From assembly GCA_040954595.2 (NCBI GenBank), contig CM082595.2, positions 1,924,635 through 1,988,634 on the forward strand: a stretch of DNA of 64,000 bases. The letters are read 5' to 3'. Every line of letters begins with the position of its first letter. Position 1 is the first letter of the stretch. This DNA is from Balanoglossus misakiensis. Lineage: Eukaryota > Animalia > Hemichordata. A program made the translations under genes and the position numbers. Shown here one piece after another: positions 9,543 through 15,424 of this stretch. The notes under the pieces are model-generated. The model was given only the letters and a program-made list of their open reading frames with translations. It did no database searches and was not told where the DNA came from.

Positions 9543-12500
9543 ATGGTGAGTCAATGTGGTAAAAGTATCATTCTATGAAAAGACGCGTGTTGTCCAACAT
9601 ATATTACCCTCACATACCTATACCTATCTCATAGAATTATTAAAAGGGACGAAGTCGCTCTTTTTGACCTTTCTGTGACATCAAGAAATCTACATGGAAT
9701 ACTTGCATAAACTTATCAATGTACAAAATGATGATTCATAACTTTAAAAGTATCACAAATTTACCCATTTTGCTGTATGTATTGGCAGTTCATAACAAAT
9801 CGATTGTTTGTCAGCAAAATGATGTGGATAGTTACCTTGTGAACAATTCAATTCATTAGTCATATTCTTATTTTTCAGCCAATGAAACTTAATATCAAGG
9901 TAAGATTTCTTAGTTTTTTTCACACCCAGTTCCCTTTAAACAGGTCCAACTTTACCATAGAAAACAATAGATTCGGACCAAACCATGGTGTTGGAAGGGT
10001 TGAACAGCAATCATAATGATGTGCTGATCATTGCTTTTATATTGGCTGGGCCCTTAAATAAAATTCTCATCAGGGAATATTATTTAATTACCAGTTGTGT
10101 ATGAATTTGTTTCAGCGTCATTTGTTGACAAGATCTAGCCGAGTGAAATGTATTGATTTCCATCCCAAGGAACCATGGTTACTGGCTTGTCTTTTCAGTG
10201 GAGGTGTACAGATATGGAATTATGAGACAAAGGTAACTCAGATGTGTGTGGTTTTATATCTTGATTTGTGCGAGTTGCTAATGCTTGTAATTATCAAACT
10301 AAATAAATTACAAAAAAGTATACAGACAGTATGTATGTATGTATGAATGCATCAAATTTGATTTTTTTCCAGACTTTGATGAAGAATTTTGAAGTTACAG
10401 ACTTACCAGTGAGGGCAGCAAAATTCATTGCTAGAAAAAACTGGTTTGTCTTTGGAGCTGTAAGTTGTTTTTAATTGTTTTGCAAATGTTTTAAGGAATT
10501 GCACAAGATATTCTGCCAAGACACAAGAATTTCATAAGAATAGACAGCGTTTTGCAAAATTCAACTTTTTGACACTGCTTTGTGTTGCAGGATGATATGG
10601 TTCTCAGAGTGTACAATTACAACACCAAAGAACAAGTGTCCTCGTTTGAAGCTCATTCTGACTTTATTCGCTGCATTGTCGTTCATCCAACGCAACCTTT
10701 TGTCATCACCAGTAGCGGTAAGTATCCCACAATGCAGTTGGCATGATTCTTACGTTGATCTGATTGCATATTTACAGACCAAATGACCATTTTTGAGCTC
10801 CGCTGTTGGGGTGACCTAAGTAAAGTTTGTGGCATGTCTGTGTATGTATTCCTCCAGATGACATGGTGATCAAATTATGGAACTGGGAGAAGATGTGGAG
10901 ATGTGAACAAGTTTACGAAGGTCATTATCACTACGTTATGCAAATAGCAATCAATCCAAAAGATAACAATACATTTGCCAGTGGATCCTTGGATATGACT
11001 ATTAAGGTGAGTCATGATTATCTGCCTAATCACCATGGTAACAAATGACTGTAGTTTATCTCTCTCTCTCTGTCTCTCTCTCTCTCTCTGTTTCTGTCTT
11101 TCTATGTCTCTCTCTCTCTGTCTCTCTGTCTCTGTCTCTCTCTCTCTCTGTCTCTCTGTCTCTGTCTCTCTCTGTCTCTCTCTCTCTCTCTCTCTCTCTC
11201 TCTCTCTCTCTCTCTCTCTCTCTCTCTCTCTCTCTCTCTCTCTCTCTCTCTCTCTCTCACTCTCTCTCTCGTCTTTTTAATCTGTCAGTGTTTATCGGTT
11301 CATTGGTTTATTTTAGGTTTGGCAACTTGGATCTCGCATTGCAAACTTTACTCTAAGTGGCCATGAGAGTGGCATCAACGCAGTGGACTACTACAAAGGA
11401 GGAGAGAAACCTTATCTCATATCTGGTGGTGATGACGGTCTTGTCAAGATTTGGGATTATCAAAATAAAACCTGTGTTCAAACACTGCGTGGACACACTG
11501 GCAATGTGACAGCAGTCTGTTTCCACCCGGAATTACCCATAATTCTGAGCGGTGGAGAGGATGGTAAGTTTGCCGTGTTGCTAGGCAAAAAAAAAGTTAA
11601 AACACAACATTCAAAGGCAAGGACCTTGTGTCATCCTTGGCTATTTTCTTGTCGTGCTTGCTTGCACCTATCACAGAACATCTCCATCAGTATTGCTAAC
11701 TTGACTCCCGTATTGACTTTGAACCTGTAGATAACATTCGCGTTTGGCATGCCAACACTTACCGTCATGAGAAGACATTGAATTATGGACTGGAAAGGGC
11801 GTGGTATATCGCTGTCTTGGAAGGAAGTAACATTATCGCTATGGCCTTTGATGAAGGGCTAGTCATGATAAAGGTAAGTTTGTCTCATAACTGTAAAAAC
11901 TGCTTCTTTTATCCAGCATAAAGAATTGACAGTTACTTTGTCTGTGAGCAAGTTTTGCTTTATTTTTGTTTGTTTTTGTCTTAGGCTGGTTCTGATGTAC
12001 TGCCGATGTCTATGGATAACACGGGTAGAATCGTCTGGGCCAAACATTCTGAACTACAACAAGCTAACCTTAAATCAGTCCAAGGTATCTTCCACTTATG
12101 TAATTTTTTATGAAACAAAAATGTTGAAGTACATATAAACACATGATCATCAGATTTCTGTTTCACATTCATCTATGATAAGGCACAGTGTTCCTGGAGA
12201 TTTCTGACATAAAAGTTTTCGGCTATGATCATGTTCAAAAGGTCTGGAAATCAAGGATGCTGAACGTTTGCCGTTGGCTGTGAAGGATATGGGAAGCTGT
12301 GAAATCTATCCACAAAGTATTGCACATAATCCCAATGGAAGGTGAGTGGTTTTGATTGTCTAGTTATTTAAAGATAACATATATTTTCGTAGTACACTTT
12401 TGAAAATGTTTCTCTTCTTTATTTGTTCATATTAAATGTTGATATTTGATGTTGTCGACAGGTTTGTTGTAGTCTGTGGCGATGGGGAATACATCATCTA

Positions 12501-15424
12501 TACAGCCATGGCTTTGAGAAATAAAGCATTTGGAACTGCTCAACAATTTGTCTGGGCACAAGATTCTAATGAGTAAGTTAAATCTAAAAAATCTTAATTG
12601 ATATTTGTTCTTGTTGTTGTTTGTTGTTGTTGTTGATAATGCTGAGCTTGTTGTATGTTACAGCTATGCAACGAGAACAAAAGACAAAATCCAAATTTAC
12701 AGAAACTTCAAAGAAGTCACAAGCTTTACTCCACCATTCAAAGCTGACAGTAAGTATAAACTCTATGCCACATGTCCCTCGAGAAATGCTGAATCAATAA
12801 TATACATGTAGAAACAATAGTCTAGTAGGTTAATAAAGTAAAGAGAAAAAGCATGACCAGTATATATTCTTCCAAGGTATTTATGGTGGACATTTATTGG
12901 GAGTGAACACGTCAGCTGGACTAGCATTCCATGATTGGACCAATCCCGAAGTCTTGATACGAAGAATAGAAATAACTCCCAGATCGGTGAGTTCTGTTCT
13001 CTTGTTTAAAGATTATTTAAAGCGTAAATTTTTTATCAATGTTGCAGCTCATGGGTTGCATGCTTTTTCTTCTGATGTACTTTTCTGATCAGTTTTAATT
13101 TATGTTTGATCATCATCAGATCTTCTGGTCGGACAGTGGAGAGTTGATGTGTATCACCACAGAAGATTCATTCTTCATTCTGAAATACAGTACTGAAGCT
13201 GTCAGCAAAGCTCAGGAAACAAATGAAGGCGTCACTGAAGATGGAATTGAAGATGCCTTTGATGTAAGTAACCTCTTTTGAATTTAACCAACTCACAAAA
13301 ATACCAGTATACCTTCAATTAATCATTTTCTGTCACTCTCAACAGGTTGTTGGTGAAATCCAAGAAAATGTCAAAACTGGTCTGTGGGTTGGAGACTGCT
13401 TCATATATACTAATTCTGTCAACCGATTGAATTATTATGTTGGTGGTGAAATTGTCACAATTTCACACTTGGACAGGTGAGAATAATCTCTTTCTGAAAA
13501 CATTTCCTCCAGTTTGGAATCAGAGTTCTGTTCTTCACAGAGATAATATGTCTTACATTTTTGATTTACAGAGCAATGAGTTTGTTGGGCTACATTCCTC
13601 GTGAAAATCGTCTATATCTTGGAGACAAAGAACTCAATGTCATCAGTTATGAATTATTACTCTCGGTATTAGAGTACCAGACCGCCGTTATGAGGAGAGA
13701 TTTTGAAACTGCAGATAAAGTCTTACCCACAATTCCACGAGAACAAAGGACGAGAGTTGCTCACTTCCTGGAAAAACAGGTGAAAATATTTAGTTTGTAA
13801 TTGTATAGATCAGATAAACAGTAGCTATATTTCAAGATGTTTACAGTCCATACATTATTATGAAAGAAATAGTCTGATGGCTATCTTCTGATCATCCGAA
13901 TGATTTTCACTTTTGTCCACAGGGTTTCAAATCACAAGCCATGGCTGTCACTGTTGATGCTGACCATAAATTCGACTTGGCAATAAATCTTGGAAATCTT
14001 CAAACAGCATACAAAGTTGCCAAAGATGTACAGGTCAGTAGTGAACAATTCCTAACATGTCTTGTTTTAATCTTTGCATCGATCATTTAATACACACATT
14101 TGTAGTTGAGCTAAGTCACAGTAAAATAACAATCGATAATATTTTATTGACTTGACAGAGTGAAGAGAAATGGAAACAGCTAGCAGAACTTGCCACCTCC
14201 AAATGTGAATTCAAATTAGCGTCTGAATGTTTACACAATGCGCAAGACTATGGTGCCTTGTTGCTATTAGCAACATGTTCAGGAGATGCTGAGATGGTGG
14301 AGAAACTCTCCAAAACAGAAAACACAGGAAAACAAAACAATGTGGCCTTTGTATCCAGTTTCTTATTGGGAAGGTAAGTGTAAAACAAAAATACTGAAAA
14401 CATAGCAGAAAGTTACAGCTAATGGAGCTTTAATGTAAATTTTCATAGATTTATACTTAAAATCACATGGTTATATCAATATTACAGACCAGAAGAATGC
14501 ATCAATGTTTTACTCCAAACACATCGGATTCCTGAAGCAGCATTCTTTGCCAGAAGTTTCATGCCGAGTAAAGTACCAGAGTAAGTGCTCATTTTATTTA
14601 TTATTTTCATTTTGTATATTATAGTTTTGCAGAATACATATTTTTATGATTGGACTACTGGGTTCGTTGGTTCCTTTCTGACAACTATACGTTTATAATC
14701 AGATATCTGGAATGTCTGTTCGTTATTTAGGATTGTTAAGCTATGGAAGGAGATGCTTGGCAGAACGGACAAGAAAAAAGCTGAAGCTCTGGCAGATCCT
14801 GAGGAATATGAGAATTTATTTGTTGGATTAAAAGAAGCATTTTATGGTGAGAAGTATTTACAGAAAACACACAAGACATACCCTGCCTCTGCATATGGCC
14901 ATGTACCCGTAAGTAGACTATATTTTTTTTTGTCTGCTAATACTTTTGGACTGATATTTCAATGAGTCTATTCAATGAGACATATATTGATACATCTAAC
15001 TTACTTGTTACTAAGATTTTGTTATATTTCTTAATAACAGAGTGTGTGTGATCGGAATGTTATGGTGGAGTTGAAGGCAGCTATAGAAGATGGAACAGCA
15101 AAGATTGTAAGTTAATTTTATATTATTTTCTCCAATGTTTGAGTCAAATATTTGTTTACATAAATTTCCGAGAATTCATTGGATTTGTGTGTTGTGTTCT
15201 ACCAGGATGTTGAGAGTGGTGATGTAATCGTCCAATCAGAGTCGGACAAGGTTTCTGTCAAGAGCTCTGTACTCACTGAACCTGGAGCAACAGATGGTGA
15301 AGAAACCATGGCAACCAAAGAGAGAGCTGATTCTGCAGATTCACTAGATTTAGAATTGGATAATCTAAATGTAGATGATTTTGATGTTGATATTAATTTT
15401 GATGATGAACTGATGGACGTTTGA
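9543..15424 (+). CDS. COPB2: Divergent tandem paralog of beta'-COP (copy B), apparently intact
   Basis: ATG-only first exon (9543-9545, gtgagt), [28 protein letters not shown]; every coding segment of copy A has a counterpart with GT-AG boundaries; no stop or frameshift found; acidic tail ends FDDELMDV*. Confidence 0.92.
9910..10003. mobile_element. MITE family 1 copy (reverse orientation)
   Basis: CCCAGTTCCC...AGGTCCAACTTTACCATAGAAAACAAT...CCATGGTG...AAGGGTT matches the family consensus. Confidence 0.8.
11059..11270. repeat. Long (CT)n/(CTGT) microsatellite in a COPB2-B intron
   Basis: Directly visible; source of the spurious SLSLSL ORFs. Confidence 0.98.

What the first reader, a model, noticed from the sequence alone, without database searches (positions are those of the whole stretch)
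9543..15424. A second intact, divergent beta'-COP: candidate alternative COPI coat subunit
Seen: a full-length tandem paralog with its own ATG exon, intact splice sites and many substitutions in the N-terminal propeller ([19 protein letters not shown] vs [19 protein letters not shown]), the inter-propeller linker (LGREEPAM vs AGSDVLPM) and the tail. Residues equivalent to the yeast Sec27 dilysine-cargo site as recalled (R15, K17, R59, D98, R101, D117, N188, D206, R272) all appear retained, while neighbours change (SLYNG to CLFSG, DYLR to DFIR). Established: the well-known animal coatomer paralogs are gamma1/2 and zeta1/2, and beta' is normally single-copy in animals. Inference: a constrained isoform able to build a second coatomer with altered cargo or partner preference.
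Basis: partly seen in the sequence, partly recalled or inferred. Interest (0 to 1): 0.85.

Follow-up and report, generated by a model that had tools for sequence, protein, structure and literature searches.

The report
Acorn worms' ancient second coatomer subunit
This acorn-worm genome region holds two intact neighbouring genes for the beta-prime subunit of the COPI vesicle coat; the second copy is shared with three other acorn-worm genera, has been partly overwritten by likely gene conversion, and has a re-lined cargo-binding face, so it likely builds an alternative coat that would pick its cargo differently.

Summary
Observation confirmed. Copy B (9543-15424, +) has 22 exons, 21 GT-AG introns and an open 921-codon frame, 69% identical to canonical copy A upstream. 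It is old: B-type proteins occur in Ptychodera, Glandiceps and Saccoglossus and form a 100/100 clade; those lineages split at least 370 Myr ago. Three tracts (aa 334-401, 468-628, 667-715) are 96% identical between the copies and group by species, indicating repeated gene conversion; the rest is synonymously saturated, dN/dS about 0.19. All four B proteins keep the dilysine-site core but share changes enriched on the cargo face (12/57 against 12/166 sites, p=0.006, positions defined after seeing the data), including Tyr-to-Phe at yeast Tyr33, a published selectivity residue. Against: no expression data for B, no binding test, B evolves about seven times faster than A, and its seventh blade folds poorly in prediction. 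Duplicated beta-prime genes are known in plants and teleosts, so this is a new variant, not a new kind.

The parts
2209..8258 (+). Copy A: canonical beta'-COP (COPB2) gene, 22 coding exons, 917 aa
   Evidence: 96% identical to Ptychodera flava P0126 over residues 1-827
9543..15424 (+). Copy B: divergent beta'-COP gene, 22 coding exons, 921 aa. Exons: 9543-9545, 9879-9899, 10116-10232, 10373-10459, 10591-10717, 10858-11006, 11317-11563, 11731-11873, 11985-12084, 12242-12341, 12462-12572, 12664-12749, 12877-12986, 13120-13263, 13346-13476, 13572-13779, 13923-14033, 14159-14373, 14488-14580, 14731-14908, 15041-15106, 15206-15424
   Evidence: 85% identical to Ptychodera XP_070562087 over residues 1-827
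9879..11873 (+). B exons 2-8: first (cargo-binding) WD40 propeller, not homogenised with A; core cargo residues kept, rim changed
11317..11563 (+). B exon 7: one exon where A has two (no intron at codon 217)
12085..12241 (+). B-only intron at codon 331, phase 1, GT-AG, weak acceptor; the first homogenised tract begins just after it
12245..12588 (+). Homogenised tract 1 (aa about 334-401, second propeller), matching A 4940-5289, intron included
   Evidence: (pS 0.15-0.21, intron z 9.9)
13099..13805 (+). Homogenised tract 2 (aa about 468-628, end of second propeller and start of solenoid), matching A 5772-6595
   Evidence: (pS 0.04-0.21, intron z 8.6 and 3.3)
14122..14310 (+). Homogenised tract 3 (aa about 667-715, solenoid), matching A from 6871; 3' end approximate
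   Evidence: (pS 0.19, intron z 5.0)
12664..12986 (+). B exons 12-13 (aa 402-467): divergent island between tracts 1 and 2; the same island in Ptychodera
13923..14033 (+). B exon 17 (aa 629-665): divergent island between tracts 2 and 3; the same island in Ptychodera
9100..9542 (+). Putative B promoter: CpG-retaining stretch (observed/expected 1.14 and 0.80 against 0.40 in the gene body) with a CCACGTC element at 9261-9267 on the minus strand; A has the same element at 2141-2147
   Evidence: the CrebA/XBP1-like label rests on the core in PMC3003312 and on recall; function untested

Best explanation
Copy B is an intact, constrained second beta'-COP gene shared by three acorn-worm families, and it likely encodes an alternative coatomer subunit that would still bind C-terminal dibasic retrieval tails but is predicted to prefer different tails or adaptors. 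Shown: the intact gene, the B clade, the species-wise homogenisation of three tracts, the kept core residues and the shared rim changes. Inferred history: a tandem duplication in the acorn-worm stem, a burst of change on the B stem, then repeated gene conversion that keeps parts of the second propeller and solenoid alike in both copies while the first propeller stays distinct. Inferred working: B takes the place of A in the alpha/beta'/epsilon outer coat of some coatomer, probably in a restricted cell type or stage. Its first propeller still clamps the tail's carboxylate (R17, K19, R61, R273 in local numbering) and lysines, while Y35F, Y101F, the loss of D16, R165 and K186, and S248G/G251D reshape what is tolerated at flanking positions.
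For: Open frame and 21 of 21 canonical introns. B-type proteins in Ptychodera, Glandiceps and Saccoglossus; 3 of 79 beta-prime-like proteins carried more B than A states. B clade 100/100 with stem 0.58 on non-converted columns. Age at least 370 Myr (PMC4729200 passages). dN/dS about 0.19, dS 0.95-2.6. Site patterns species:paralog are 5:1 in tracts and 1:111 outside, p=2e-7; Ptychodera A/B are 98-100% identical in the same tracts. The first propeller is at least as conserved among animals as the tracts (0.906 against 0.883) yet was not homogenised. 18 of 21 WD40 hotspot positions are canonical in all four B proteins, two are Tyr-to-Phe, one is variable in other species. Y35 is Tyr in 212 of 217 non-B proteins; S248G, G251D and E226R/K occur in 0 of 217. 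Top-face enrichment: 10/51 against 7/144 (p=0.003); animals only, 12/57 against 12/166 (p=0.006) and against bottom loops 2/45 (p=0.02). Yeast Tyr33 is described as a selectivity residue, and Tyr33Ala abolished binding of a test peptide (PMC10724246 passages). Ptychodera B has two RefSeq isoforms that differ by exactly the 7-residue second exon, which indirectly suggests transcript support. Both beta-prime Pfam domains score far above cut-off, and the acidic C-terminal tail is kept.
Against: No expression, assembly or binding result for B. B evolves about seven times faster than A between this genome and Ptychodera (path 0.34 against 0.046), which fits relaxed selection equally well. The apparent concentration of fixed changes in the first propeller over the solenoid (22/195 against 0/42, p=0.017) vanished when conservation was scored on animals only (32/223 against 8/62, p=1.0). 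The top-face position set was drawn, by WD40 convention, after the list of changes had been seen, and exposed loops may simply tolerate more change. Tyr-to-Phe is conservative, and 4 of 217 non-B proteins also have Phe at 35. AlphaFold left blade 7 of Ptychodera B (266-303) at pLDDT under 50, whereas copy A folded with the same 36 rows scored 74-85 there. No A-type protein of Glandiceps or Saccoglossus was among the 120 listed, so the pair is shown in two lineages only. Paralog-specific mammalian COPI vesicles showed no major cargo difference in vitro (PMC7368096, PMC8946003 passages).
Confidence: 0.5

Rival explanations
1. B is a functionally equivalent beta'-COP kept for dosage or for tissue- or stage-restricted expression (for example gonad or mucus cells). 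Its changes would be tolerated drift under relaxed selection, and cargo choice would be unchanged.
For: Core cargo residues all kept. Sevenfold faster evolution than A. Fixed changes are as frequent in the solenoid as in the propeller on the animal-only count. Several B states (K4, S246, A/S274, F290) resemble yeast Sec27 in the 3mkq alignment. Arabidopsis beta' isoforms and mouse gamma paralogs are largely redundant. Both promoters carry the same CCACGTC element.
Against: Changes at sites invariant or nearly so in 217 other beta-prime proteins are shared by all four B lineages, often as the same new residue. They are enriched on the top face relative to bottom loops. The most conserved domain escaped homogenisation in two lineages. 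Seven teleost copb2 proteins checked, long paralogs included, keep the canonical residue at all 10 top-face sites.
Confidence: 0.33
2. B works outside the standard coat, or as a regulator of it: it would join partners through the homogenised second propeller and solenoid, while its first propeller no longer sorts dilysine cargo normally and serves another ligand.
For: Long B stem; poor predicted closure of blade 7 in B but not A; B-specific solenoid changes such as N781D and A784K.
Against: 18 of 21 hotspot positions, including the whole carboxylate clamp, are kept for at least 370 Myr. The N-terminal domain still superposes on the human COPB2 WD domain (8d41_B, TM 0.83 by target, rmsd 2.4 over 258 columns). 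The full domain order and acidic tail are kept.
Confidence: 0.12
3. B is a decaying or silent duplicate, or the look-alike tracts are an assembly artefact.
For: One weak splice acceptor at 12241; no direct transcript evidence for this genome.
Against: Open frame despite saturated synonymous sites. Orthologs in three other genera. The tracts are 95.6% identical, not 100%, with graded divergence, and the same tracts are homogenised in the independent Ptychodera records.
Confidence: 0.04

Closest known systems
Canonical beta'-COP (COPB2 / yeast Sec27; PDB 5a1u, 3mkq, 8d30)
   Same: Two WD40 propellers, solenoid and acidic tail; PF04053 and PF23953 above cut-off; best sequence and fold matches are beta'-COP; core dilysine-site residues kept.
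   Different: About 69% identical to starfish and rodent beta' where copy A is 82%; fixed changes around the cargo face, among them Tyr33-to-Phe in yeast numbering.
Mammalian paralogous coatomer subunits gamma1/gamma2 and zeta1/zeta2
   Same: An old duplicate of one coatomer subunit that defines coat isoforms; largely redundant with some paralog-specific role (PMC7368096, passages).
   Different: Those are adaptor-subcomplex subunits. Here the duplicate is the outer-coat subunit that itself binds dilysine cargo, lies in tandem and is partly homogenised.
Arabidopsis beta'1-3-COP isoforms
   Same: Several beta' genes in one genome (PMC8946003, abstract and passages).
   Different: The passages seen report partial redundancy and no expected difference in cargo binding; the B paralog changes conserved cargo-face residues.
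Teleost copb2 pair and seadragon copb2 expansion
   Same: Extra beta' genes in animals (PMC9245644, passages).
   Different: Teleost short and long forms are 85% identical in the one pair compared and keep all 10 top-face residues in 7 of 7 checked; the seadragon copies are described as recent and transposon-associated.
Tandem pairs under long-term partial gene conversion (BMP8A/B, DDX19A/B, TUBG1/2; Leptodactylus ATP1A1)
   Same: Segments homogenised within species while other parts stay paralog-specific (PMC2720389 and 10.1101/2020.08.04.234435, abstracts only).
   Different: The pair here appears older (at least 370 Myr for the B clade; conversion shown in two ptychoderid-like lineages), and no function has been tested.

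Membership tests
beta'-COP (COPB2/Sec27) | WD40 propeller + COPA/B second propeller + COPA/B TPR solenoid | tested here: met
   Ptychodera B ortholog: PF00400, PF04053 (296 bits, cut-off 57), PF23953 (272 bits, cut-off 33); window B is colinear with it and with A
beta'-COP (COPB2/Sec27) | Closer to beta' than to alpha-COP | tested here: met
   1382 bits to mouse beta' against 238 to alpha; inside the bilaterian beta' clade, 96/93
beta'-COP (COPB2/Sec27) | Dilysine-site residues R15, K17, R59, R272 (from papers read) and D98, R101, D117, N188, D206 (recalled) | tested here: met
   9 of 9 kept in 4 of 4 B proteins; numbering; roles
beta'-COP (COPB2/Sec27) | Selectivity residue Tyr33 | tested here: not met
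   Phe in 4 of 4 B proteins, Tyr in 212 of 217 others
beta'-COP (COPB2/Sec27) | Closed seven-bladed first propeller | tested here: inconclusive
   Blades 1-6 confident, blade 7 under 50 pLDDT in B, 74-85 in the A control; 36-row alignment
beta'-COP (COPB2/Sec27) | Assembles with alpha- and epsilon-COP into coatomer and binds dilysine cargo | not tested
Paralogous coatomer subunit defining a coat isoform | Both copies expressed as protein, with distinct expression or function | not testable with these tools
   Only indirect: two RefSeq isoforms for Ptychodera B; the Schizocardium row cannot be assigned to a copy
Gene pair under partial concerted evolution | Paralogs closer than orthologs in defined tracts, with low synonymous and intron divergence | tested here: met
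Duplication within acorn worms | A and B of acorn worms form one clade | tested here: inconclusive
   Free tree leaves B unplaced among bilaterians; AU test does not reject A+B, p=0.32; no B-type protein found outside acorn worms

The most novel reading that the evidence does not exclude
Acorn worms have kept, for at least 370 million years, a second COPI coat whose beta-prime cargo propeller reads a different set of retrieval signals, with gene conversion holding the coat-assembly parts interchangeable while selection protects the cargo face. It would be a natural case of coatomer isoforms with distinct cargo codes, possibly serving their heavy mucus secretion.
Probability: 0.3. Interest if true: 0.75.

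Novelty: new variant of a known kind. Interest (0 to 1): 0.5.

Why it matters
Whether paralogous COPI subunits sort different cargo is called an outstanding question in the papers read. The known mammalian paralogs are not the subunits that bind dilysine tails; this one is. A and B give a matched natural pair: same core, a short list of fixed rim changes, and near-identical coat-side segments. The cargo-code question can therefore be tested with two recombinant 300-residue domains and a peptide panel. The pair is also an unusually old example of domain-restricted gene conversion. The proteins already sit in RefSeq as 'coatomer subunit beta'-like', but my searches found no paper that treats them as a distinct paralog.

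Tried and rejected
No whole genome is held for this window, so other loci of this organism could not be searched. Sequencing runs: no RNA holder listed. Search with Ptychodera A: no A-type protein of Glandiceps or Saccoglossus among the 120 listed (lengths 505-1609 only, so fused or split models cannot appear). 50%-identity representatives: 0 of 82 aligned proteins (of 150 listed) carried more B than A states. Earlier findings of the scan: nothing by words or by place. Supplements: no COPB2/coatomer rows in PMC11618098 (2 files) or PMC11175523 (8 files). In PMC13554239 one row, 'Copb2-3', is raised in the mucin-secreting cluster 12 together with Copa, Copb, Copg2, Cope and Copd-2 and is seen in 42% of other cells; the copy cannot be told, the file was cut when stored, one PDF was too large to read, and neighbouring gene ids gave no synteny link. 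Rejected: the linker as a B-defining trait. Rejected: 'fixed changes concentrate in the first propeller rather than the solenoid'. Rejected: an overall charge shift of the propeller (one search shows little). Rejected: loss of the yeast Glo3 patch, since the D437 equivalent stays acidic in B and D450 is not acidic in animals generally. Rejected: purifying selection alone as the cause of the tracts, since synonymous sites and introns are alike too. The CCACGTC element occurs 8 times in the window against 2.44 expected, 6 of them away from these genes, so it is a weak lead only. No complex prediction was sent.
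Full report
The observation. The window holds two beta'-COP genes in tandem on the + strand. Copy A (2209-8258) has 22 exons and 917 codons. Copy B (9543-15424) has 22 exons, 921 codons, 21 of 21 GT-AG introns and no internal stop; my first model was one base short at exon 9 and out of frame, and the corrected junction sits on the GT donor. The proteins match at 638 of 925 columns. 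They share 20 of 21 intron positions; A alone has an intron at codon 217 and B alone one at codon 331, with a weak acceptor. The product across that junction aligns without a gap to the Ptychodera and Glandiceps B proteins. Between A's stop and B's start lie about 1.3 kb, with AATAAA at 8938 and 8947 and a CpG-retaining stretch just upstream of B.

A mosaic pair. Similarity is patchy. In three tracts (aa 334-401, 468-628, 667-715; 278 codons) the copies are 96.4% identical, pS is 0.147, 91 of 102 four-fold sites match, and the five introns in or at the edge of the tracts are alike (z 3.1-9.9; the other 15 of 20 compared are at 2.3 or less). In the other 548 codons up to residue 827, identity is 62.8%, pS is 0.78, pN is 0.229, and 46 of 121 four-fold sites match against 33.6 expected. 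A rough correction gives dS 1.41 (0.95-2.6) and dN/dS about 0.19. I defined the tracts from this pair, so their likeness here is circular; the independent test is Ptychodera, whose A and B are 99, 100, 98 and 98% identical in the same segments and 48-72% elsewhere. Sites that group by species against sites that group by paralog number 5:1 in the tracts and 1:111 outside (Fisher p=2e-7). Trees agree: by species in the tracts, by paralog outside. This is the signature of repeated gene conversion in separate lineages; an assembly collapse would give identical sequence and would not recur in another species' records.

Age and spread. A search with B exon 7 found Ptychodera flava XP_070562087/8, Glandiceps talaboti XP_077998505 and Saccoglossus kowalevskii XP_006822317 (565 aa, partial); these were the 3 of 79 beta-prime-like proteins, out of 120 listed, with more B than A states. 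Ptychodera also has an A copy, on a record with the same longest-contig length; adjacency there was not checked. On 549 non-converted columns and 31 of the 47 rows used, IQ-TREE gives B as a clade at 100/100 on a stem of 0.58, with A sister to echinoderms at 95/91. B's position among bilaterians is open; forcing A and B together is not rejected (p-AU 0.32). No B-type protein turned up outside acorn worms. The Saccoglossus and Ptychodera lineages split at least 370 Myr ago (PMC4729200, passages), which is a minimum age for B. The window's organism is inferred to be an acorn worm nearest Ptychodera (A 96%, B 85% identical). Two limits: no A-type protein of Glandiceps or Saccoglossus was among the 120 listed, and B evolves about seven times faster than A (path 0.34 against 0.046).

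The cargo face. I compared four B proteins with 217 non-B beta-prime proteins (of 263 held; dropped were 5 B records and those under 250 residues covered or under 50% identity to A). R15, K17, R272, Y33 and F142 are described in PMC10724246 and R15/K17/R59 in PMC9960064 (passages); the roles of D98, R101, D117, N188 and D206 are recalled. Of 21 WD40 hotspot positions (layout recalled), 18 are canonical in all B, one is variable elsewhere, and two are Tyr-to-Phe: Y35 (yeast Y33; Tyr in 212 of 217) and Y101 (Tyr in 215 of 217). The paper names Tyr33 as one of two residues that distinguish the beta' site from alpha's and as a suggested block on tails with a beta-branched penultimate residue; Tyr33Ala abolished binding of its test peptide. 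Seventeen of 195 conserved first-propeller sites are changed in all four B proteins; S248G, G251D and E226R/K occur in 0 of 217 others. Ten of the 17 lie in the top-face loops (10/51 against 7/144, p=0.003). With 180 animal-like proteins (at least 70% identical to A) the figures are 12/57 against 12/166 (p=0.006) and against bottom loops 2/45 (p=0.02). I drew those positions after seeing the changes. A second pattern did not survive: first propeller against solenoid was 22/195 against 0/42 with all taxa but 32/223 against 8/62 with animals only. B is still constrained: 144 of 160 near-invariant non-converted sites stay canonical in the three full-length B proteins. The first propeller is at least as conserved among animals as the converted tracts (0.906 against 0.883), so its escape from conversion is not explained by low conservation; this fits selection keeping it distinct, though divergence itself also blocks conversion.

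Structure. Ptychodera B carries both beta-prime Pfam domains far above cut-off. Its AlphaFold model (36 rows, mean pLDDT 74) matches beta'-COP structures first (5nzr, E 5.7e-81; human WD domain 8d41_B, rmsd 2.4 over 258 columns). Blade 7 (266-303) and residues 1-14 scored under 50; Ptychodera A folded with the same rows scored 74-85 in blade 7 and was also low at 1-15. This counts against B, with the caveats that the alignment is shallow and A-like, and that B's blade-7 states resemble yeast Sec27 in the 3mkq alignment. In the mouse coat, cross-links join beta' 615 and 627 to the delta-COP linker and 779 to the beta-COP linker (PMC5482573, passages); the first two fall in tract 2, the third does not, so 'tracts equal coat interfaces' is only a guess.

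Expression. Not shown. The two Ptychodera B isoforms differ by exactly the 7-residue second exon found in the window; from general knowledge of RefSeq annotation, such exon-skipping models usually rest on transcript alignments. In Schizocardium single-cell markers one gene, 'Copb2-3', rises with other coatomer subunits in a mucin-secreting cluster, but the copy is unknown and the file was cut (PMC13554239, passages and part of one supplement). Both A and B have a CCACGTC element 68 and 282 bases upstream of their ATG, which contains the CrebA core given in PMC3003312 (passages); six more lie elsewhere in the window.

How it most likely works. Shown: an intact, old, constrained, partly homogenised paralog with a kept cargo core and a changed rim. 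Inferred: it replaces A in a share of coatomer, clamps dibasic tails with the same core, and differs in tolerated flanking residues or in adaptors (0.5). Rivals: an equivalent copy kept for dosage or restricted expression (0.33); a role outside the standard coat (0.12); a dead copy or artefact (0.04).

Comparison and novelty. Paralogous coatomer subunits are known: gamma and zeta in mammals (PMC7368096, passages), three beta' genes in Arabidopsis (PMC8946003, abstract and passages), two copb2 genes in tuna and platyfish and six to nine in seadragons (PMC9245644, passages). Seven of seven teleost proteins checked keep all ten top-face residues, so the acorn-worm paralog differs in kind of change. 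Long-lived partial conversion is also known (PMC2720389 and 10.1101/2020.08.04.234435, abstracts). Searches for a description of this paralog (listings only, open-access library) found none; none of the 20 listed of 126 papers contains 'coatomer'. Subscription journals and unseen supplements could hold one. PMC12494035 was read in passages for context only. Verdict: real, a new variant of a known kind, interest 0.5.

Noticed in passing
window 13572-13590 (B exon 16 start); A 6364-6380: Residue 562 is Tyr in both A copies and Ser in both the window's and Ptychodera's B, the only paralog-pattern site inside a homogenised tract; Glandiceps B has Tyr. It may be a tract edge or a site protected from conversion.
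   Followed up: partly
window 9918-10001, 20254-20323, 23928-24021, 37983-38079, 42367-42459, 48781-48872, 61861-61956: A dispersed repeat of about 90 bases, 76-92% identical between copies, in both orientations, one copy in B intron 2.
   Followed up: no
window 11059-11274: A long TC microsatellite in B intron 6.
   Followed up: no
window 15750-19500, minus strand: A multi-exon gene converging on B's 3' end; cysteine-rich exons look like TMEM201/Samp1 (name recalled; no Pfam hit for the one exon tested).
   Followed up: partly
window 20515-23239 and 25313-26676, plus strand: Exons resembling an SLC35E-type transporter and prohibitin-2 (names recalled; no Pfam hit for the single frames tested).
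   Followed up: partly
window 31868-32503, 37672-41494, 45897-51959, 59659-60424, plus strand: A Ras-family GTPase (Cdc42-like by recall), a tyrosine phosphatase (SHP2-like by recall), CEP104 and a forkhead gene; Pfam hits PF00071, PF00102, PF21038, PF00250.
   Followed up: partly
window 43145-44296 minus; 54539-55150 plus: A single-frame rhodopsin-family GPCR (PF00001) and a small fibronectin-III protein with a hydrophobic stretch (PF00041).
   Followed up: no
window 55526-58089, minus strand: An intron-containing gene with a beta-lactamase-family domain (PF00144) and a weak DUF3471 match; origin not examined.
   Followed up: no
window 1-1900, minus strand: A CpG-retaining region upstream of A (observed/expected 1.2-1.7 at 1500-2200) suggests a head-to-head neighbour; no gene could be named from short frames.
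   Followed up: partly
P0059, P0122: Only B-type beta-prime proteins were retrieved for Glandiceps and Saccoglossus. If their genomes truly lack an A copy, B alone would run their coatomer; a database or gene-model gap is more likely.
   Followed up: no
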